A stretch of 64,000 nt of DNA, taken from Escherichia phage warpig. Shown here one piece after another: positions 4,129-55,585 of this stretch. Under the pieces are notes generated by a model. It saw only the letters and a program-made list of their open reading frames with translations, was not told the origin of the DNA and searched no databases. The stretch lies in the sequence record MN850637.1; one strand, written 5' to 3'. Every line of letters begins with the position of its first letter. The stretch's first letter is position 1. Both the position numbers and the translations under genes were made by a program.

Positions 4129-6271
4129 ACGCATAGATACCATTCTTAGCCTTCTTACGTCCTTTGCTAATCTCATGAAGAAGATTCTCATCCTGAGTAG
4201 CTCGACAAGTCAAGATGTCCTGCTCATCATTCAAGTTAAAGTAAATACTATTCAGTGTATGTGCATCAGTCCCTGAATAGACAACGTACAGGTCATTCTC
4301 AGAGTCATAGTGAAGGTACTTATCAATCTCTGGGTTGAGATACTCATCGAAGTGTTTGCAGTAATAGCGTCCATCTTCTTGACGAGTAAACTCAATCTCT
4401 TCTTTACCTTGCGTTACCGCTTTGGTGAACTCTTTATCACCCATAAAGTTACAAAGGAGAACTAGCTGGGCTGAGTTCATATCAACGGAGACTACGTTGG
4501 TTCCCTCTTCGCAAATCCACACCTCCCTCATAGGCGCTCCATAGACAGCAGCACCAGACGGTACGTTTACAATACCATATTGTGTCATACGTCCAGTTGA
4601 AGTGCCAAACACCATTGCACCAGCACTAAGGCGACCATCAGGACGAATCTGGTTCAACCAACCTTTTTCATCATCCTTTGAGTTCTCAATAGTTCTGCGT
4701 CGGTGCATCAAAGTATAGTACTTAGCAATCTTCTGTCCAAGCTCACCTTCAATCGTATCATAAGATGATTCAGTAAGTTTTGGTGAAGTACGGATTAAGC
4801 AAGGTTCAAGCAAATCTGTGTATTTCTTCACAGACCAGTTATGCTCGATGTACTGTACACCTTCATGTTCAACATAACTCAAACCACACCGCTCAACCAT
4901 TTCCTGCCACTTAGGATGCTTTGTAATCATCTTTTTATTGTCTTTGAAACGACAAACTTTGATAGGGCGACCATCTGAGTCTTTCTTGTAATTCCAGTCA
5001 TCTGGAATCCAACCAACTGATTTCAAGTAGTCTTTAACAACTGCTACCTGAGTCATACGAGAAACTTCAAACTCAATTGGTGTATATGGTGCATCAATCA
5101 AACCTGTGTAGCGACTTGACTCAAGTTCAAAGTGATTGACAACGTGACTGTTATAGTACTTCACAGTCTTGACTGTTTTTACTGGTTTCCAGTCTTTGCA
5201 TTTTTTGCCAATCTTTGCATTCAACTCGTTGCAGATTGCACGAGCATCCTTCATCGCTACAAAACCCTCTTTGTACTCTTCACCAGTTACAGAGTTGGTT
5301 GGTGTATAGCAATTCCTTTTTTCAATGTTAAAAATCTTTGTAGTTGGCTTACCAAATGGCTTGATTTCGTATGTCTGCATCTCACCGTTACGCACCTGTT
5401 GACGATACTTTGTCTTAGGATACTTGGTAATTCTCTTCAGTCCATCTGCATGACCAAATGTTTCAACATACTCATTCCAAGCTTTTGCAAACTCTTCTCC
5501 AGTGACTTTACCTTTGGTCTTAATAGTTGGAGGTAGATGTGGTTCAACCTCTGAAGCAAGCTCATTAGTCAACTTGTCAAGCTCCTTTACATGGAACTCC
5601 ATAAGCTCTTTATCAGCTTTCCAACCATTGATAGCTTGTTGACTCATCCAGAAAGATGTTTCTTTAGCTCGCATGTAAGTTTCATAAGTGTCTATACCAC
5701 ACTTCTTAAGCTTGAGATACTCGTTATCAAGTGCCCGTTTAGTTTTGGCATTAATACGGATATCTTCTACAACACGAGTGAAGATTTCTGCATTCCACAC
5801 ACCCCAATGTTCAATCTCTGGTTTACGGACACCAACACGAGCACCCCATGCAGCCAAACCATGAGCACCTTTATAGCCCTTTGGAGTTGGTCTATCCATC
5901 CACTGAACACGGGACTGGATAAGAGAATCCTGAAAGAAATTACTCCACGGTTTACACTTTGGATTATCAAAGTTCCATAAATCAGGTGCAATGTGATTAA
6001 AAACCCACCAGTCATAACCGAGACCGTTATGGATGCAAAGACGTTTTGCCTTTAACGCAAACTCAATACCTTCTCGTAAGCCACCCTTAATGTACTTAGT
6101 GTACTTGTGACCGAGGATAGGCTCATCTGTAAAGACCCATACAGGTGGCTCTTCATCGTCAGATTTATAGTCTGCAAAGGCCATTACGTGAACTTTAGTG
6201 AACTCAAGGAGTAAACCATCAGTTTCTGTATCACCAACCAAATGTAAGTTTTTAAAATCTACGTTTTCCAT
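4129..6271 (-). CDS. DNA polymerase (family A, T7-like), exon 1
   Basis: Exo I motif VGDTETDGL, T7-pol-like blocks (GLAAWG, YTPIEFEV, motif A VDMNSAQL), ends within motif B (RKKAKNGIYA); RBS GAGGGAG before ATG at 6271. Confidence 0.9.
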
Positions 6272-52150: not shown

Positions 52151-52231
52151 TTTTAAAAGGTGTTGACAGACTCTATAAAGTTGCTCTAAAGTCTGTCACA
52201 TCAAACAACAAATGAGAGAAGAGAGTAAAAT

Positions 52232-53647
52232 ATGAGCGAATTATTTAAACATGCGCACCTTCATGCAGGTCGAACTGAAAATGGTGCTGTAAACCATACT
52301 TCATCAATGTCTGCTCTAGTAAACTTTTACAAAGCTGCTGGTTCAAGCCGTAGCAACGTAGAAATCTTACCAGACCTGTTCTACAAAGCTTTGCGTGAGG
52401 ATGTTGATGTTGCAGTTCGTATTTTGCTTCATATGCGAGATGTACGAGAAGGTATGGGTGAGCGTAAAGCCTTCAGAACTGTTTTGCTTCAAGCAATTGA
52501 AGACAAAGTTTTAGAGTCTACGCAGGTTCTTCGCATTATGGATAAGATTGCAGAACTTGGTCGTTTTGATGACTTCAAAATCTTCGTAGGTACTCGTTTC
52601 GAGACAGATGCCTTCAAACATTTAGAAGCAGCATTACTAGACCCTGCAACAGCAGGTTTGGCGGCTAAGTGGTTACCACGAGTCAAACCACGTCATAAGC
52701 AGTTTGTAAAACGTTTCTGCAAGTTTGCCAACTTGAGTGAGAAAGAGTACCGCACACTGTTGTCTGCACTATCTGATACAGTTGAGCAAAAAATCTCTGC
52801 TAATGAGTTTGGTAAGATTGACTACAGTAAGATTCCTTCACTTGCTGCTGCACGTTACCAAAAACTGTTTAACCGTAAAGATGGAGAGCGTTACAAAGCT
52901 TACATCGAGTCCTTATCAAAAGGTGAGACTAAGATTAACGCTGGTGCTGTTTACCCATACGATGTGATTAAATCTGTCAAGTATGGTAATGCAGATGTTG
53001 CTAATGAGCAGTGGAAAGCACTACCAAACTGGATGGCAGAAGGTGAAAACATCTTGTGTATGTCTGATGTATCAAGTTCAATGTCTTGGGTGAATTTTGG
53101 CTCCATTACTGCTCTGGATATTGGTGTATCACTTGCCTTGTATGTAGCAGAACGCAATACAGGTTGCTTTAAGAATGAGTTAATGGTTTATTCAACAAAC
53201 CCTCACTTCATCGAACTGAGTGGTGATTTACGAAACCGTCATCGTCAGGTGATGCGACACGTTGAATATGGCTCAACTAACTTACAAGCAGCTTTTGACC
53301 GCATTCTTGAAACAGGTAAAAGAAACAACTTGACTCAGAAAGATATGCCAAGTAAGCTTATCATCTTCTCCGATATGGAGTTCAATCAGGTTGATGGAGC
53401 TAACGGTCGTACAAACTTTGAAGCAATTCAGAGTAAGTACAAAAAAGCTGGATATGAGATGCCACAACTGGTATTCTGGTACTTAGCAAACCGTAATGGT
53501 ACTTGCGAAGTATCTGTTAAGGATAACGGTGTAGCAATGGTATCAGGGTTCTCTCCAGCCACTTTAAAAGCTCTGCTTGGTGGTGAGAAGTTTGACCCAA
53601 TCAGTGTAATGCTCAAAGCAGTAATGATTGACCGTTATATCTGGTAA
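52232..53647 (+). CDS. vWA-domain protein (possible TROVE/Ro60-like or DUF-type)
   Basis: 471 aa; MIDAS-like DVSSSMS and downstream vWA-like segment; N-terminal helical domain unassigned. Confidence 0.45.
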   Translation: MSELFKHAHLHAGRTENGAVNHTSSMSALVNFYKAAGSSRSNVEILPDLFYKALREDVDVAVRILLHMRDVREGMGERKAFRTVLLQAIEDKVLESTQVLRIMDKIAELGRFDDFKIFVGTRFETDAFKHLEAALLDPATAGLAAKWLPRVKPRHKQFVKRFCKFANLSEKEYRTLLSALSDTVEQKISANEFGKIDYSKIPSLAAARYQKLFNRKDGERYKAYIESLSKGETKINAGAVYPYDVIKSVKYGNADVANEQWKALPNWMAEGENILCMSDVSSSMSWVNFGSITALDIGVSLALYVAERNTGCFKNELMVYSTNPHFIELSGDLRNRHRQVMRHVEYGSTNLQAAFDRILETGKRNNLTQKDMPSKLIIFSDMEFNQVDGANGRTNFEAIQSKYKKAGYEMPQLVFWYLANRNGTCEVSVKDNGVAMVSGFSPATLKALLGGEKFDPISVMLKAVMIDRYIW

Positions 53648-53665: not shown

Positions 53666-53694
53666 TTGACAATGTGTTTAATACCCTTTAATAT
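53666..53694 (+). promoter_or_regulatory. sigma70-like promoter with overlapping palindrome
   Basis: TTGACA - 17 bp - TAATAT; inverted repeat GGGTATT...AATACCC spans the -35/spacer. Confidence 0.55.
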
Positions 53695-53756
53695 GTTCTA
53701 CATAGAAGCGAAATGAGAGCTTTTCTAAGATACTGAAAAATATTTTAAAAAAGTTC

Positions 53757-53786
53757 TTGACAACCACTAAAAAATAATGTTAAAGT
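53757..53786 (+). promoter_or_regulatory. sigma70-like promoter with overlapping palindrome
   Basis: TTGACA - 17/18 bp - TAAAGT; inverted repeat AACCACT...AGTGGTT in spacer; upstream of first tRNA. Confidence 0.45.
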
Positions 53787-53974: not shown

Positions 53975-54064
53975 GTTTTGACAGAAGACCAATTACAGCA
54001 AACTTAATCTACTCATCTGACACGAAATCGGACAAAGAAGATATTTGGTCTGGTCATTAAGAAT

Positions 54065-54141
54065 TGCGGGTATAGAGAAAGGGCGTCTCACATGTCTCAT
54101 TAGCATGGTATCGGCAGGTTCGACTCCTGCACCCGCCTCCA
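54065..54141 (+). tRNA. tRNA-Met or Ile2 (anticodon CAT)
   Basis: T-arm GCAGG-TTCGACT-CCTGC, acceptor 3' ACCCGCC, anticodon loop CTCATTA; position 37 is T (atypical). Confidence 0.55.
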
Positions 54142-54182
54142 AATTTACAGAAGACCGTTTACAGCAAAACTTAAACAATCTA

Positions 54183-54255
54183 TTTCTCGGTAAAGAAAAG
54201 GCGAAGGTTCGATTCCTTCACTCGGCAGATGTCGAGTTGGTGTAATGGTAGCACT
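54183..54255 (+). ncRNA. tRNA-like locus with permuted half order (3' half then 5' half)
   Basis: Hairpin (54183-54198) + T-arm GAAGG-TTCGATT-CCTTC + acceptor 3' ACTCGGC-A, 3 nt (GAT), then acceptor 5' GTCGAGT + D-arm GTGT-AATGGTA-GCAC; anticodon arm unresolved. Confidence 0.35.
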
Positions 54256-54426
54256 TAAGATGGTAAACAACGGTCTGGTAATTATCTTTGTAGATAAGTT
54301 ATTAAGCTTACCTGTGAGTATGCGACCACAAAGGGTGAAGGGTAAATTCTAGATTTAAACCCAAAAAGGCACATCGCTACAGACCTTAAGCAAGTCTGGG
54401 TAGCTTATCTACAAAGATAATTTAAT

Positions 54427-54502
54427 GGAAGTGTAGCAGAATGGTGATGCGGCAGACTTTTAATCTGACAGGCGATGGGTTCGAATCCCTCCACTTCTAC
54501 CA
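54427..54502 (+). tRNA. tRNA-Lys (anticodon TTT)
   Basis: Acceptor GGAAGTG/CACTTCT, loop CTTTTAA, T-loop TTCGAAT, CCA encoded. Confidence 0.7.
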
Positions 54503-54506
54503 AAAT

Positions 54507-54583
54507 GGTTCAGTCGCAGATAAGGTAATGCAAGGGTCTCATAAGCCCTATGAATGTGGGTTCGATTCCCATCTGAACCTCCA
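54507..54583 (+). tRNA. tRNA-Met or Ile2 (anticodon CAT)
   Basis: Acceptor GGTTCAG/CTGAACC, anticodon stem AGGGT/GCCCT, loop CTCATAA, T-arm GTGGG-TTCGATT-CCCAT. Confidence 0.7.
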
Positions 54584-54585
54584 AT

Positions 54586-54660
54586 TGTGGGTTAGCATAA
54601 ATGGTAATGCAAACGGCTGATAACCGTTAGAAGAGGGTTCGATACCCTCACCTACAACCA
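54586..54660 (+). tRNA. tRNA-Ile (anticodon GAT)
   Basis: Acceptor TGTGGGT/ACCTACA, D-arm GCAT...ATGC, anticodon stem AACGG/CCGTT, loop CTGATAA, T-arm GAGGG-TTCGATA-CCCTC. Confidence 0.8.
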
Positions 54661-54675
54661 ATTTCAATAAAGTTG

Positions 54676-54704
54676 TTGACATTGAGATGTGACCACTTTA
54701 TAGT
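54676..54704 (+). promoter_or_regulatory. sigma70-like promoter inside tRNA cluster
   Basis: TTGACA - 17 bp - TATAGT. Confidence 0.55.
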
Positions 54705-54908
54705 AACCTTAGTTTTCGTTGCGTAGCGTCTATTTTGCAAATTTAAAATAAATGCAAACGACAATGTTTTTCTGGCAGTAGCTTGATAGGCTAAACACCA
54801 GTGAGGTCTTCCAATCCCTCATCAAAGAATTTGGCGTACTCGCCCACGGTATGATTAATAAGGTGGGCATCTTTAAGGGCTTTCTAAGAGAGTCTTTAAA
54901 GATAATTA

Positions 54909-54990
54909 CGGGGCGTATCTCATCTGTCTTCTAAACAGACGTTAACCGAGTAAGTGGAGTATGCGGGTTCGAGTCCTGCCGCCTCGACCA
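54909..54990 (+). tRNA. atypical tRNA-like gene (anticodon loop TCTAAAC, long extra arm, minimal D region)
   Basis: Acceptor CGGGGCG/CGCCTCG with A73-CCA, T-arm GCGGG-TTCGAGT-CCTGC, hairpin TGTCT-TCTAAAC-AGACG; only about 7 nt where a D-arm should be. Confidence 0.4.
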
Positions 54991-55004
54991 ATTTTGGAGA
55001 AATC

Positions 55005-55352
55005 ATGAAAACTTGTATTAGGTGCAAACTTAGCAAGGATGAAAATGATTTCTACATGAAAGATGGTAGGAGAACTCATTCATACTGTAAAAAGTGTGTT
55101 AATGAGCAAACCATAGAAAGACAAAGAGCACTTAAACTCTCAGCTATTGAGTACAAAGGTGGGGTTTGTCATGATTGTGGTAAGAAATATCATCCAGCAG
55201 TGTATGACTTCCATCATTTGAATCCTTCAGATAAAGATTTTAACATTGGTCATAGGAAAAGCCTTAAGTTCTCTCAAGAACTAAAAGATGAACTTGACAA
55301 ATGTGTTTTGCTATGTTCAAATTGCCATAGGGTAAGACATGCAAAGTATTAG
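55005..55352 (+). CDS. HNH endonuclease
   Basis: 116 aa from ATG with RBS GGAGAAATC; CxxC...YDFHHLNPSDKDFNIG...LLCSNCHR HNH motif; embedded in tRNA cluster. Confidence 0.7.
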   Translation: MKTCIRCKLSKDENDFYMKDGRRTHSYCKKCVNEQTIERQRALKLSAIEYKGGVCHDCGKKYHPAVYDFHHLNPSDKDFNIGHRKSLKFSQELKDELDKCVLLCSNCHRVRHAKY

Positions 55353-55489
55353 TTAGCAGATTACTTAGACGACCTAAGCGGGTCTTCCTGTAGGGAGGTG
55401 GTCTGTATCTCATGTTTTCCAGAACATGTAAATAATCTGAGAAGGGGCTTTACAGTGTTGAGATAATACGGTAAGCTTCGAATTATAGT

Positions 55490-55572
55490 GTGGGACGATG
55501 TTAAGACTCTAAGGCATGAGCAACGGCTTCCAACACCGTTTCAAAGGGGTTCAACTCCTCCGTCCCATGCCA
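55490..55572 (+). tRNA. tRNA, possibly Trp (anticodon CCA), atypical D region
   Basis: T-arm AGGGG-TTCAACT-CCTCC, acceptor GTGGGAC/GTCCCAT, G73-CCA; anticodon stem AACGG/CCGTT with TTCCAAC loop; about 6 extra nt in D region. Confidence 0.4.
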
Positions 55573-55585
55573 AAGTCTTATTAGG

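What the first reader, a model, noticed from the sequence alone, without database searches (positions are those of the whole stretch)
52232..53647. vWA-domain protein next to the tRNA cluster, with atypical tRNA-like RNAs nearby
The 471-aa protein has a MIDAS-like DxSxS motif (DVSSSMS) in a C-terminal vWA-like domain and an unassigned helical N-terminal domain; this architecture is shared by Ro60/TROVE RNA-binding proteins, which bind tRNA-like Y RNAs. It lies immediately upstream of a tRNA array that contains several non-canonical tRNA-like elements (54183-54255; 54909-54990, which follows its own promoter at 54676 and a roughly 200-nt leader). A protein-RNA module is a hypothesis only.
Basis: inference. 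Interest (0 to 1): 0.45.

Follow-up and report, generated by a model that had tools for sequence, protein, structure and literature searches.

The report
Phage Ro60-like protein with Y-like RNAs
A Felix O1-type phage encodes a ring-shaped Ro60-like RNA-binding protein next to two small RNAs, one of them a tRNA mimic, that look like its partner "Y RNAs"; the same protein-RNA pairing recurs in very different phages and does not seem to have been described for this protein family.

Summary

The element at 54183-54255 is not a decayed tRNA. It is the tRNA-like core (T arm, loop-closed 7-bp acceptor, D arm) of a ~125-nt RNA (54152-54277). That RNA is closed by a 7-8 bp stem followed by a conserved CAGCAA motif, which is the topology of bacterial YrlA Y RNAs. 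A short form without the tRNA domain lies at 53986-54052.

Two covariance models find these RNAs, always on the gene strand:
- in 45 of 75 distant DUF2828 loci (~40% protein identity), at a median of 109 nt from the gene;
- in mycobacteriophage LeBron and Listeria phage LP-083-2;
- essentially nowhere in 773 kb of control viral DNA.

The second element (54909-54990) is unrelated: a conserved tRNA-like RNA without a D arm. Its "leader" is a tmRNA-like tag-coding RNA (ANDNVFLAVA) with no recognisable tRNA-like domain. Protein-RNA binding and function remain inferred.

The parts
52163..52192 (+). Promoter-like site upstream of the Ro60-like gene (TTGACA, 18 nt, TAAAGT)
   Evidence: Consensus scan, 10 of 12 matches. 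A consensus match only.
52232..53647 (+). Gene for the 471-aa Ro60-like protein (Pfam DUF2828 + DUF7788; PHROG 850 'RNA-binding protein')
   Evidence: ORF. Pfam and PHROG hits. AlphaFold2 model with pLDDT 89.2 and pTM 0.89. Full-length structural matches to Ro60.
52232..53026 (+). N-terminal all-helical domain (residues ~1-265), predicted HEAT-repeat, TROVE-like part of the ring
53039..53644 (+). C-terminal vWA domain (residues ~270-471) with a complete MIDAS site; the DVSSSMS motif is at nt 53066-53086
   Evidence: DUF7788 at residues 274-455. vWA_Ro60 and VWA_2 hits in homologues. D279, S281, S283, T349 and D381 invariant. Alternating beta-alpha pattern in the model.
53666..53786 (+). Two promoter-like sites (53666-53694 and 53757-53786) in front of the tRNA/Y-like RNA array
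   Evidence: Consensus scan, 10 of 12 matches each. Inferred to drive the polycistronic tRNA precursor in which the Y-like RNAs are embedded.
53986..54052 (+). Short Y-like RNA: stem AGACCAA (53986-53992) pairing with UUGGUCU (54045-54051), then G; CAGCAA motif at 53996-54001; no tRNA domain. It lies between tRNA-Glu and tRNA-Met.
   Evidence: Model R2 hit at 53983-54056, 32.7 bits, E 1.2e-4, the only R2 hit in the 64-kb window. Same architecture as 50 hits in 40 distant loci.
54152..54277 (+). Long Y-like RNA with YrlA-type topology: closing stem 54152-54159 pairing with 54269-54276; CAGCAA at 54162-54167; T arm 54203-54219; loop-closed acceptor 54220-54237; D arm 54240-54254
   Evidence: Descriptor hit. 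Model R1 hit, 48.8 bits, E 7e-9. The single-sequence fold recovers the permuted cloverleaf. Conserved in heid and Felix O1. Covariation in 12 distant homologues.
54676..54704 (+). Strong promoter-like site (11 of 12) for the tmRNA-like RNA.
54711..54905 (+). tmRNA-like mRNA-like domain without a tRNA-like domain: resume context AUAAAU|GCA, tag ORF 54754-54783 (ANDNVFLAVA), stop 54784-54786, post-stop hairpin, conserved UGAUUAAUAA region. Not part of the Ro60-like module.
   Evidence: Sub-threshold Rfam tmRNA and tmRNA_permuted hits. Homologues in unrelated phages, prophages and plasmids. Tag frame kept through synonymous changes. The hairpin covaries.
54909..54990 (+). Atypical tRNA-like RNA: 7-bp acceptor with G3:U70, A73 and CCA; no D arm; invariant anticodon loop CUUCUAA (UCU); 22-nt variable region; T arm. 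Not Y-like.
   Evidence: Rfam tRNA 33.4 bits. Not called by ARAGORN. Conserved with compensatory changes in phages 121Q, Roth49 and ECGD1.

Best explanation
The 471-aa protein is a divergent, phage-type member of the Ro60 fold: a HEAT-repeat ring closed by a vWA/MIDAS domain. The two small RNAs embedded in the adjacent tRNA operon (53986-54052 and 54152-54277) are its Y-RNA-like partners.

Proposed mechanism. The RNAs are transcribed with the tRNAs from the promoters at 53666 and 53757 and released by tRNA-processing nucleases. The protein recognises the 7-bp closing stem together with the CAGCAA loop motif, which always starts 10 nt after the stem begins. This would be analogous to Ro60 or Rsr binding the conserved stem and GNCGAA/CGAA motif of Y RNAs. 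The remainder of the RNA serves as an effector module, either an A/U-rich loop or, in the long form, an L-shaped tRNA mimic with a loop-closed acceptor. That module would gate the ring or tether it to a host enzyme that handles tRNA or structured RNA, as Y RNA tethers Rsr to PNPase. The phage would thereby gain control over the turnover or surveillance of structured RNA or tRNA during infection.

Shown here: the predicted fold, the RNA family with its covariation, and its tight, strand-specific linkage to the gene across distant phages. Inferred: direct binding, processing, and the downstream partner and function.
For: Fold:
- AlphaFold2 model with pLDDT 89.2 and pTM 0.89.
- The Foldseek top 11 PDB hits are all Ro60, aligned over the full length, TM up to 0.67.
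- The MIDAS residues are invariant, and 11 of 46 homologues hit Pfam vWA_Ro60.
- Full-length homologues (31-34% identity) in cluster-L-type mycobacteriophages are already annotated 'Ro-like RNA binding protein'.

RNA:
- A scan for T arm, closed acceptor and D arm found stand-alone + strand elements, not overlapping ARAGORN tRNAs, in 11 distant DUF2828 loci.
- These elements unexpectedly share a closing stem of unrelated sequence and the motif UU[AC]C[AC]GCAA.
- In 12 long forms, 97.6% of cells are paired and 20 of 24 pairs show double changes, against about 40% paired in slid controls.
- In 34 short forms the 7-bp stem shows covariation 0.83 against 0.20 in shuffles, and the motif sits at a fixed distance from the stem.
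- R1 gave 85 hits and R2 gave 58 hits, all on the gene strand.
- Of the R2 hits, 50 with E<=0.01 lie in 40 of 75 distant loci, 16 of which were not seed loci. The median distance to the gene is 109 nt and none lies inside the gene. Counting long forms, 45 of 75 loci carry the RNA.
- The negative control (773 kb of unrelated viral loci) gave 2 hits, both in Felix-like fragments.
- The same arrangement occurs in mycobacteriophage LeBron (short-long-short in the intergenic region after gp53) and in Listeria phage LP-083-2 (two short forms just upstream of the gene).
- Rfam YrlA hits the long forms below its gathering score: 39.8 bits in LeBron and 28.7/25.2 bits in L076.

Published precedent:
- YrlA has the order 5' motif, V, T, closed acceptor stem, D (PMC4201824).
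- Thermus phage phiLo Ro60 binds two neighbouring Y-like RNAs carrying a CGAA motif in a loop flanked by a 5'-3' stem, and forms a complex with host PNPase (PMC12135203).
Against: - No sequence method connects the N-terminal domain to TROVE, so common descent rests on a predicted structure.
- The conserved RNA motif is CAGCAA, not GNCGAA(N)G. In the window the long form gets no Rfam YrlA hit even at E<=10.
- 30 of 75 distant loci show no hit with my models.
- Helices 2-4 of the long-form alignment were selected by my own descriptor, and the seeds were trimmed of variable linkers, so part of the pairing is there by construction.
- Several loci are near-duplicates, so the number of independent observations is lower than the locus counts.
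- No expression, processing or binding data were found for any DUF2828 phage.
- Felix O1 has no annotated RNA ligase or RtcB within record positions 30000-79999, the part examined, so a role in RNA repair is not supported for this phage.
Confidence: 0.7

Rival explanations
1. The stem-plus-CAGCAA elements are cis-acting signals rather than trans-acting Y-like RNAs. They could be processing sites for the polycistronic tRNA/mRNA precursor, or operator sites through which the protein or a host factor regulates translation or stability of the DUF2828 mRNA.
For: The elements sit within tens of nucleotides of the gene, on the same strand, either upstream or downstream. In Vibrio phage phi-pp2 a weak short form overlaps the ribosome-binding site and the start codon. 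In the window they lie between tRNAs inside one operon.
Against: They occur in tandem arrays of up to 7 per locus, and some lie kilobases from the gene (L076 8484-8607, L062, L010). The long forms carry a complete tRNA elbow with conserved U8, A14 and GG, which a processing site would not need. The closest analogues in topology are bona fide Y RNAs. Autoregulation and a trans-acting role are not mutually exclusive.
Confidence: 0.15
2. The protein is a vWA/MIDAS protein that works on protein ligands, for example as a partner of an AAA+ ATPase or an adhesion or assembly factor. On this view its proximity to structured RNAs is incidental.
Against: Only Ro60 proteins align over the whole length, N-terminal ring included. 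Ro60 itself has a MIDAS site of unknown role (PMC12135203). The RNA family follows the gene across Proteobacteria, Firmicutes and Actinobacteria phages and is absent from control DNA. No AAA+ partner is annotated next to the gene.
Confidence: 0.05
3. The 'non-canonical tRNA-like elements' are leftovers of tRNA-gene decay and rearrangement in a fluid tRNA cluster. The cluster is riddled with HNH endonucleases and deletions, and on this view the elements have no function of their own.
For: The cluster is clearly fluid. The window has lost the tRNA-Asn/Tyr/Asp block by deletion between direct repeats. HNH genes interrupt the array. Felix O1 carries annotated tRNA pseudogenes. A further degenerate tRNA-like sequence sits at about 55483-55573.
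Against: The 54152-54277 element is conserved in Felixounaviruses. Counterparts with compensatory changes in all four helices exist in phages whose Ro60-like proteins are only about 40% identical. The 54909-54990 element also covaries in three unrelated phage groups. Pseudogenes would not keep their pairing.
Confidence: 0.05

Closest known systems
Ro60 / Rsr (TROVE family) with bacterial Y RNAs YrlA and YrlB (Chen et al. 2014, PMC4201824; Rfam RF02553)
   Same: The protein has the same ring of helical repeats plus a C-terminal vWA domain with MIDAS. One or more small RNAs are encoded next to the gene on the same strand. Each RNA has its 5' and 3' ends paired in a stem next to a short conserved motif. 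One RNA class carries a tRNA mimic in the order T arm, loop-closed acceptor, D arm (as in YrlA), and another class lacks it (as in YrlB). The 7-bp acceptor would make RNase P cleavage possible, as in M. smegmatis YrlA.
   Different: No TROVE sequence signature is detectable; the family is Pfam DUF2828 + DUF7788. The motif is C[AC]GCAA in the loop just 3' of the stem, not GNCGAA(N)G. Scores against the YrlA model are 25-40 bits, below the gathering score of 69, and there is no hit at all for the window copy. The family is overwhelmingly phage-borne. In Felix O1-type phages the gene is not in an rtcBA operon, although a Listeria phage homologue lies 1.3 kb from an RtcB-like ligase.
Thermus phage phiLo Ro60 with Yrl1 and Yrl2 (PMC12135203; PDB 9l5y)
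   Different: The phiLo protein is a recognisable TROVE protein, and its RNAs carry CGAA. As described, the phiLo RNAs have no tRNA-like domain. Binding has been shown for phiLo and not for this family.
'Ro-like RNA binding protein' of cluster-L-type mycobacteriophages (LeBron gp53, Lolly9, Zakai and others)
   Same: These are true homologues: 31-34% identity over the full length, E 1e-57 to 1e-75. LeBron has short, long and short Y-like RNAs in the 360-nt intergenic region after the gene.
   Different: This is only an annotation label. I found no publication describing the RNAs or testing the protein.
tmRNA (standard, permuted and TLD-only forms), for the 54711-54905 RNA
   Same: It shares the resume context AUAAAU|GCAAACGA, identical to that of phage permuted tmRNAs. 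It has a 10-codon tag of the form AN[DE]xxx[LF]LAVA ending in hydrophobic Ala/Val, a post-stop hairpin and a pseudoknot-like region.
   Different: There is no tRNA-like domain formed by the ends of the RNA. Neither ARAGORN nor Rfam calls it (16 and 30 bits against a gathering score of 47). It is the converse of the TLD-only tmRNA of mycobacteriophage DS6A (PMC4131195).

Membership tests
Ro60 / TROVE protein family | Closed ring of alpha-helical (HEAT-like) repeats joined to a C-terminal vWA domain | tested here: met
Ro60 / TROVE protein family | MIDAS motif (DxSxS...T...D) in the vWA domain | tested here: met
   D279, S281, S283, T349 and D381 are invariant in 46 homologues.
Ro60 / TROVE protein family | Sequence match to the Pfam TROVE domain or to solved Ro60 sequences | tested here: not met
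   No TROVE hit for the query or for any of 46 homologues at E<=10. phmmer and a profile search against PDB sequences find no Ro60. Only the vWA_Ro60 model hits weakly, in 11 of 46 homologues.
Ro60 / TROVE protein family | Binds Y RNA on the outer surface and single-stranded RNA ends in the central cavity | not testable with these tools
   Needs RIP, EMSA or a structure. The invariant Arg, Lys and Trp residues in the N-terminal domain are compatible with RNA binding but prove nothing.
Ro60 / TROVE protein family | Y-RNA gene(s) encoded next to the protein gene | tested here: met
   Met in a variant form. Stem + CAGCAA RNAs occur on the gene strand in 45 of 75 distant loci, at a median of 109 nt from the gene, and also in LeBron and LP-083-2. 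Control DNA gave 2 hits in 773 kb.
YrlA Y RNA (Rfam RF02553) | tRNA-like module in the order T arm, loop-closed acceptor stem, D arm, with the 5' and 3' ends paired | tested here: met
   Window 54152-54277. 12 distant homologues are 97.6% paired, and 20 of 24 pairs show double changes. U8, A14 and GG are conserved.
YrlA Y RNA (Rfam RF02553) | 5' GNCGAA(N)G motif | tested here: not met
   The motif is UU[AC]C[AC]GCAA, starting at a fixed 10 nt from the start of the stem.
YrlA Y RNA (Rfam RF02553) | Reaches the Rfam gathering score (69 bits) | tested here: not met
   No hit for the window element at E<=10. 28.7 and 25.2 bits in L076. 39.8 bits in LeBron.
YrlA Y RNA (Rfam RF02553) | Modified by tRNA enzymes (TruB, DusA) and, where the acceptor has 7 bp, cleaved by RNase P with CCA addition | not testable with these tools
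   The acceptor has 7 bp in 12 of 14 long forms, and some loops encode NCCA (L061b, L076a, L076c). This is suggestive only.
Canonical tRNA (for 54909-54990) | Cloverleaf with a D arm, called by tRNA finders | tested here: not met
   ARAGORN does not call it. The Rfam alignment deletes the D arm (4 nt in place of 15) and inserts about 20 nt in the variable region. The consensus fold has no D arm. It does pass the Rfam tRNA gathering score (33.4 against 29).
tmRNA (for 54711-54905) | Tag reading frame with a GCA resume codon and a hydrophobic Ala-rich C-terminus | tested here: met
   The tag is ANDNVFLAVA*. Family members carry ANEEMYLAVA, ANDEQFLAVA, ANDDLMLMAA and similar tags, with synonymous changes in that frame.
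tmRNA (for 54711-54905) | tRNA-like domain (acceptor with G3:U70, T arm, CCA) formed with the ends of the same RNA or with a paired second piece | tested here: not met
   There is no conserved T loop within 400 nt on either side in 25 family members. ARAGORN calls none of them, although it does call the permuted tmRNAs found by the same 14-mer. Rfam scores of 16 and 30 bits fall below the gathering score of 47.

The most novel reading that the evidence does not exclude
DUF2828 proteins and their 'CAGCAA' stem RNAs form a second, phage-centred branch of the Ro60-Y RNA world that has not been recognised. The family has about 5,700 clusters at 50% identity and is present in Felix O1-, KVP40-, A511-, Campylobacter CP30A- and LeBron-type phages. 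On this reading the tRNA-mimic domain does something specific to tRNA biology during infection. It might be a decoy or sensor for host tRNA-cleaving defences, or a scaffold that recruits host PNPase, RNase P or CCA-adding enzyme to damaged tRNAs. The same locus also carries an orphan tmRNA-like tag RNA with no tRNA-like domain. If that RNA works with a separate alanine-identity tRNA-like piece, it would be a new tmRNA architecture, and the region would amount to a phage toolkit for translation rescue.
Probability: 0.2. Interest if true: 0.8.

Novelty: new variant of a known kind. Interest (0 to 1): 0.62.

Why it matters
Ro60-Y RNA particles are conserved from bacteria to humans and are a major human autoantigen, yet their functions are known in only a few systems. 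This result gives a large 'domain of unknown function' family (about 5,700 clusters at 50% identity, 709 phage isolates) a concrete, testable identity. It defines the likely RNA ligand down to a 7-bp stem and a six-base motif. It also places the system in genetically tractable model phages (Felix O1 on Salmonella and E. coli, KVP40-like, A511-like and LeBron-type phages). That makes the question of what a Ro60 RNP does for a virus directly approachable. It also supplies two covariance models for annotating an RNA family that Rfam 15 does not capture. DUF2828 is also found in plants, so the assignment may reach beyond phages.

Tried and rejected
- Sequence-level links to TROVE. Pfam on the query and on 46 homologues, phmmer, and a profile search against PDB sequences all found nothing. 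Only structure comparison worked.
- Rfam on the window. No Y RNA family hits either element. The only YrlA hit (54537-54639, 14.5 bits) is the known artefact produced by two adjacent tRNAs.
- Tandem-tRNA artefact. I checked whether the T arm, acceptor and D arm hits were the junctions of two adjacent tRNAs. ARAGORN calls no tRNA over any of them.
- MAFFT on the raw long forms misaligned the acceptor hairpin. I therefore built the models from seeds with the variable linkers trimmed, which is a caveat.
- My relaxed Python descriptors were too noisy to count with (about 10 and about 58 hits in shuffles). I replaced them with covariance models and a negative control.
- Host ssrA as the origin of 54745-54869. 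Rejected, because the segment matches only 339 of 5,426 E. coli genomes, in prophages and plasmids.
- tRNA-Ile as the acceptor piece of a permuted tmRNA (Rfam tmRNA_permuted, 30 bits). Rejected, because tRNA-Ile is the best-scoring true tRNA in the array, and homologues start transcription only 40-60 nt before the tag.
- A-plus-B as one functional tmRNA. Doubtful. Many Felixounaviruses keep A without B. B occurs alone in other phages. G3:U70 is lost in ECGD1.
- RNA-repair genes in Felix O1. None is annotated within record positions 30000-79999, the part examined.
- The supplement of Chen et al. 2014, which lists phage YrlA RNAs, was not available.
Full report
**Context.** The window is a Felix O1-type myovirus (Felixounavirus). 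The segment 51700-55400 is 98.5% identical to Escherichia phage heid and 95% identical to Salmonella phage Felix O1, and 305 phage records match it. In those records the gene in question is annotated variously as 'RNA-binding protein', 'vWFA protein', 'DUF2828 family protein' or 'hypothetical protein'.

- The ORF 52232-53647 (+) encodes 471 aa.
- Pfam gives DUF2828 for the N-terminal part and DUF7788 for residues 274-455. PHROG 850 'RNA-binding protein' matches end to end, E 1e-183.
- DVSSSMS is residues 279-285. D279, S281, S283, T349 and D381 are invariant in 46 homologues down to 40% identity, so the MIDAS site is complete.
- The tRNA array of 21 genes, all on the + strand, begins 166 nt downstream of the stop codon.
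- Promoter-like sites lie at 52163, 53666, 53757 and 54676. The last is the best, with 11 of 12 matches.

**The protein has the Ro60 fold.** Sequence methods do not see TROVE. An AlphaFold2 model built on a 46-sequence alignment is confident, with pLDDT 89.2 and pTM 0.89. It shows about 17 helices followed by an alpha/beta domain.
- Foldseek against the PDB returns Ro60 structures as all of the top 11 hits, each aligned over more than 500 columns: Thermus phage phiLo Ro60, Xenopus Ro60 (TM 0.67) and Deinococcus Rsr. Matches confined to the vWA domain follow with E-values about four orders of magnitude worse.
- The Pfam vWA_Ro60 model hits 11 of 46 homologues weakly.
- tblastn shows the family in 709 phage records: Felixounaviruses, KVP40-like Vibrio phages, Aeromonas, Campylobacter, Listeria, Staphylococcus, Enterococcus and Bacillus phages, and mycobacteriophages. 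The mycobacteriophage homologues, 31-34% identical over the full length, are already labelled 'Ro-like RNA binding protein'.
- An exhaustive HMMER search finds 5,745 clusters at 50% identity with E<=1e-3.

**The element at 54183-54255.** An alignment with heid and Felix O1 shows two things. The window has lost the tRNA-Asn/Tyr/Asp block by deletion between direct repeats, and the flagged element is conserved. Read directly, the element is a circularly permuted tRNA:
- T arm GAAGG-UUCGAUU-CCUUC (54203-54219);
- 3' acceptor strand ACUCGGC, loop AGAU, 5' acceptor strand GUCGAGU (54220-54237);
- UG, then D arm GUGU-AAUGGUA-GCAC (54240-54254).

The whole is enclosed by AGACCGUU (54152-54159) pairing with AACGGUCU (54269-54276). 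The single-sequence fold reproduces this permuted cloverleaf. It is the topology published for YrlA, the tRNA-like Y RNA bound by bacterial Ro60: 5' motif, V, T, closed acceptor stem, D (PMC4201824).

**Comparative test.** I fetched 80 viral loci encoding relatives of the protein; 75 of them are only about 40% identical.
- A strict descriptor (T arm, perfectly paired closed acceptor, D arm) found + strand hits in 11 distant loci. None overlaps an ARAGORN tRNA, and several lie within 20-130 nt of the gene.
- All hits turned out to share two features the descriptor had not asked for. One is a 7-9 bp closing stem whose sequence differs in every phage. The other is a motif UU[AC]C[AC]GCAA immediately after its 5' strand.
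- On 12 such long forms, trimmed of variable linkers so that MAFFT aligned them without error, the four helices are 97.6% paired. Twenty of 24 pairs show changes on both sides, and the covariation score is 1.08 against 0.27 in shuffles. Slid controls are about 40% paired.
- Caveat: helices 2-4 were selected by the descriptor. The closing stem and the motif were not.
- U8, A14 and the D-loop GG are conserved, as expected for an L-shaped tRNA elbow.

**A short form.** A covariance model of the long form (R1) gave 85 hits with E<=1 over 741 kb searched on both strands, all on the gene strand. Many of these were elements of 50-70 nt lacking the tRNA domain. Their layout is:
- [A/U]G[G/A]-NNNN stem;
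- motif C[AC]GCAA starting exactly 10 nt after the stem begins;
- an A/U-rich linker that often contains (A/U)CUA(C/U);
- an A-rich run, then the 3' strand ending YC[U/A] followed by G.

Thirty-four of these align without gaps, and the 7-bp stem covaries: 91% paired, score 0.83 against 0.20. The second model (R2) performed as follows.
- It gave 58 hits with E<=0.1, again all on the gene strand.
- Among the 75 distant loci, 50 hits with E<=0.01 fall in 40 loci, 16 of which contributed no seed.
- The median distance to the gene is 109 nt, 39 of the 50 lie within 300 nt, and none lies inside the gene.
- Counting long forms, 45 of 75 loci carry the RNA.
- Copies are often tandem: three in L075, seven in L076.
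- Only 25 of 75 loci have any tRNA within 4 kb, so the RNA follows the gene and not the tRNA array.
- In 773 kb of unrelated viral contigs R2 found two hits, both in Felix-like fragments.
- In the 64-kb window its only hit is 53983-54056, the short form between tRNA-Glu and tRNA-Met. heid and Felix O1 have further copies.

**Named phages.**
- Mycobacteriophage LeBron: the 360-nt gap after gp53 holds a short form (4425-4486), a long form (4521-4609; R1 39.2 bits; Rfam YrlA 39.8 bits, below the gathering score of 69) and another short form (4627-4680).
- Listeria phage LP-083-2: two short forms lie in the 395-nt gap just upstream of the gene. An RtcB-like ligase lies 1.3 kb downstream and a ROOL RNA 1 kb upstream. 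In Salmonella, rsr and yrlBA lie in the rtcBA operon (established knowledge).
- Vibrio phage phi-pp2: a weak short form overlaps the ribosome-binding site and start codon.
- Rfam YrlA also hits two long forms in L076 at 28.7 and 25.2 bits.

**Literature.** Phage Ro60 homologues with neighbouring Y-like RNAs are known in some mycobacteriophages, in CcrColossus, in Bacillus phage G, and, with binding and structural data, in Thermus phage phiLo. The phiLo RNAs have a 5'-3' stem flanking a loop with a CGAA motif, and the RNP engages host PNPase (PMC4201824, PMC12135203). I found nothing on DUF2828, on Felix O1-type phages in this respect, or on a CAGCAA-type RNA.

**Interpretation.** The simplest reading is a Ro60-like RNP. 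The protein would bind the stem plus the CAGCAA loop, and the rest of the RNA (A/U-rich loop or tRNA mimic) would serve as the effector module. The function is inferred by analogy only: control of structured-RNA or tRNA turnover, possibly through host PNPase or tRNA enzymes.
- Felix O1 has no annotated RNA-repair genes within record positions 30000-79999, the part examined.
- Some long forms encode NCCA right after the 3' acceptor strand (L061b, L076a, L076c), and most have a 7-bp acceptor. They may therefore be opened by RNase P and end in CCA, as M. smegmatis YrlA does.

**The second element is something else.** 54909-54990 is a tRNA-like RNA with a 7-bp acceptor (G3:U70, A73, CCA), no D arm, an invariant CUUCUAA anticodon loop (UCU), a 22-nt variable region and a T arm.
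- It scores 33.4 bits with Rfam tRNA, but ARAGORN ignores it.
- It is conserved at 85-88% in the jumbo phage 121Q, the T5-like Roth49 and the phi92-like ECGD1, with compensatory changes in the acceptor and anticodon stems.
- G3:U70 is not kept in ECGD1.

Its 200-nt 'leader' (54711-54905, behind the 54676 promoter) is a separate module.
- It carries AUAAAU|GCA AAC GAC AAU GUU UUU CUG GCA GUA GCU UGA, which reads ANDNVFLAVA*, a tmRNA-type tag. Rfam tmRNA hits are sub-threshold.
- The module matches Klebsiella siphoviruses, Vi01-like phages, Erwinia phages, and prophages or plasmids in 339 of 5,426 E. coli genomes, so it is not ssrA.
- A scan of viral contigs for the 14-mer resume context recovered many permuted tmRNAs that ARAGORN calls. 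It also recovered an enterobacterial family that ARAGORN does not call, with tags ANEEMYLAVA, ANDEQFLAVA, ANDDLMLMAA and ANDDVVLMAA.
- In that family the changes are synonymous in the tag frame, the post-stop hairpin covaries and a UGAUUAAUAA region is conserved. No T loop or tRNA-like domain is conserved within 400 nt on either side.
- Known phage tmRNAs are standard, permuted or TLD-only (PMC4131195, PMC11915505). An MLD-only form appears to be undescribed, and how its tag could be used is unexplained.

**Verdict.** The Ro60/Y-RNA interpretation is supported for the protein and for the 54183-54255 element, and not for 54909-54990. The system is a new variant of a known kind: a divergent Ro60-fold family with its own class of Y-like RNAs, widespread in phages. 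Binding and function remain to be shown.

Noticed in passing
window 54711-54905 (promoter 54676-54704; tag ORF 54754-54786): A tmRNA-like mRNA-like domain with the tag ANDNVFLAVA* but no recognisable tRNA-like domain. Homologues carrying ANEEMYLAVA, ANDEQFLAVA, ANDDLMLMAA and similar tags occur in unrelated enterobacterial phages, in lambdoid prophages (between Q and the lysis genes) and on plasmids. The tag frame is conserved through synonymous changes and the post-stop hairpin covaries. ARAGORN and Rfam do not call any of them. In the prophages the module is flanked by 12-bp stems GGUAAGAGCAUU/AGUGCUCUUUCC that enclose variable, sometimes tRNA-like, domains. How the tag could be used is unexplained.
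   Followed up: partly
window 54909-54990: A tRNA-like RNA with no D arm, a UCU anticodon loop, a 22-nt variable region and a G3:U70/A73/CCA acceptor end. It is conserved with covariation in phages 121Q (annotated tRNA-Leu), Roth49 (tRNA-OTHER) and ECGD1 (unannotated). Its function is unknown.
   Followed up: partly
window 54278-54428: A highly structured unit closed by a ~24-bp stem (AAUUAUCUUUGUAGAUAAG... pairing with ...CUUAUCUACAAAGAUAAUU) around a multibranched interior. MFE is -48.3 kcal/mol and the z-score is -6.15. It is conserved in heid and Felix O1, has no Rfam match and is not hit by my models.
   Followed up: partly
window ~54141-54150, compared with L002 6440-7000 and L001 6440-7070: The window lacks the tRNA-Asn/tRNA-Tyr/tRNA-Asp block, and one or two further short Y-like units, that heid and Felix O1 carry here. 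The deletion lies between direct repeats CAAAUUUACAGAAGACCGU, which are the 5' parts of Y-like units. The repeated Y-like stems may therefore drive rearrangement of the tRNA cluster. The window also has no tRNA-Arg.
   Followed up: partly
window ~55483-55573: Another tRNA-like sequence: acceptor GUGGGAC/GUCCCAU, G, CCA, and a T loop GGUUCAACUCC at 55548. It has a 9-nt anticodon loop and is called by neither ARAGORN nor Rfam.
   Followed up: no
window 54954-55352: The HNH endonuclease ORF is listed (and annotated in heid) from GTG 54954, which would overlap the tRNA-like RNA. ATG 55005, preceded by GGAG at 54996-54999, is the more likely start. The Felix O1 annotation (393 nt) agrees.
   Followed up: partly
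L212 (Listeria phage LP-083-2) 1429-1980 and 5815-7026: A ROOL RNA (87 bits, just under the gathering score of 99) and an RtcB-like ligase lie within 1-1.5 kb of the Ro60-like gene and its two short Y-like RNAs. This clusters large structured RNAs, tRNAs, an RNA-repair enzyme and the Ro60-like RNP in one place.
   Followed up: no
L030 257-707; also L096, L100, L102, L111, L128, L131, L138, L144: Permuted (two-piece) tmRNA genes are common in IMG/VR viral contigs and share the resume context AUAAAUGCAAACGA. One lies 3.3 kb upstream of a DUF2828 gene (L030).
   Followed up: partly
L061 5563-5619, L076 5843-5902 and 8527-8582: In some long Y-like RNAs the loop closing the acceptor stem encodes a discriminator base plus CCA (G-CCA, A-CCA, C-CCA). 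This hints that these RNAs are cut open into two-piece molecules with a tRNA-like 3' CCA end.
   Followed up: no
L211 (Vibrio phage phi-pp2) 2962-3011: A weak short-form Y-like element overlaps the ribosome-binding site and the ATG of the Ro60-like gene itself. This would fit autoregulation of translation by the protein.
   Followed up: no
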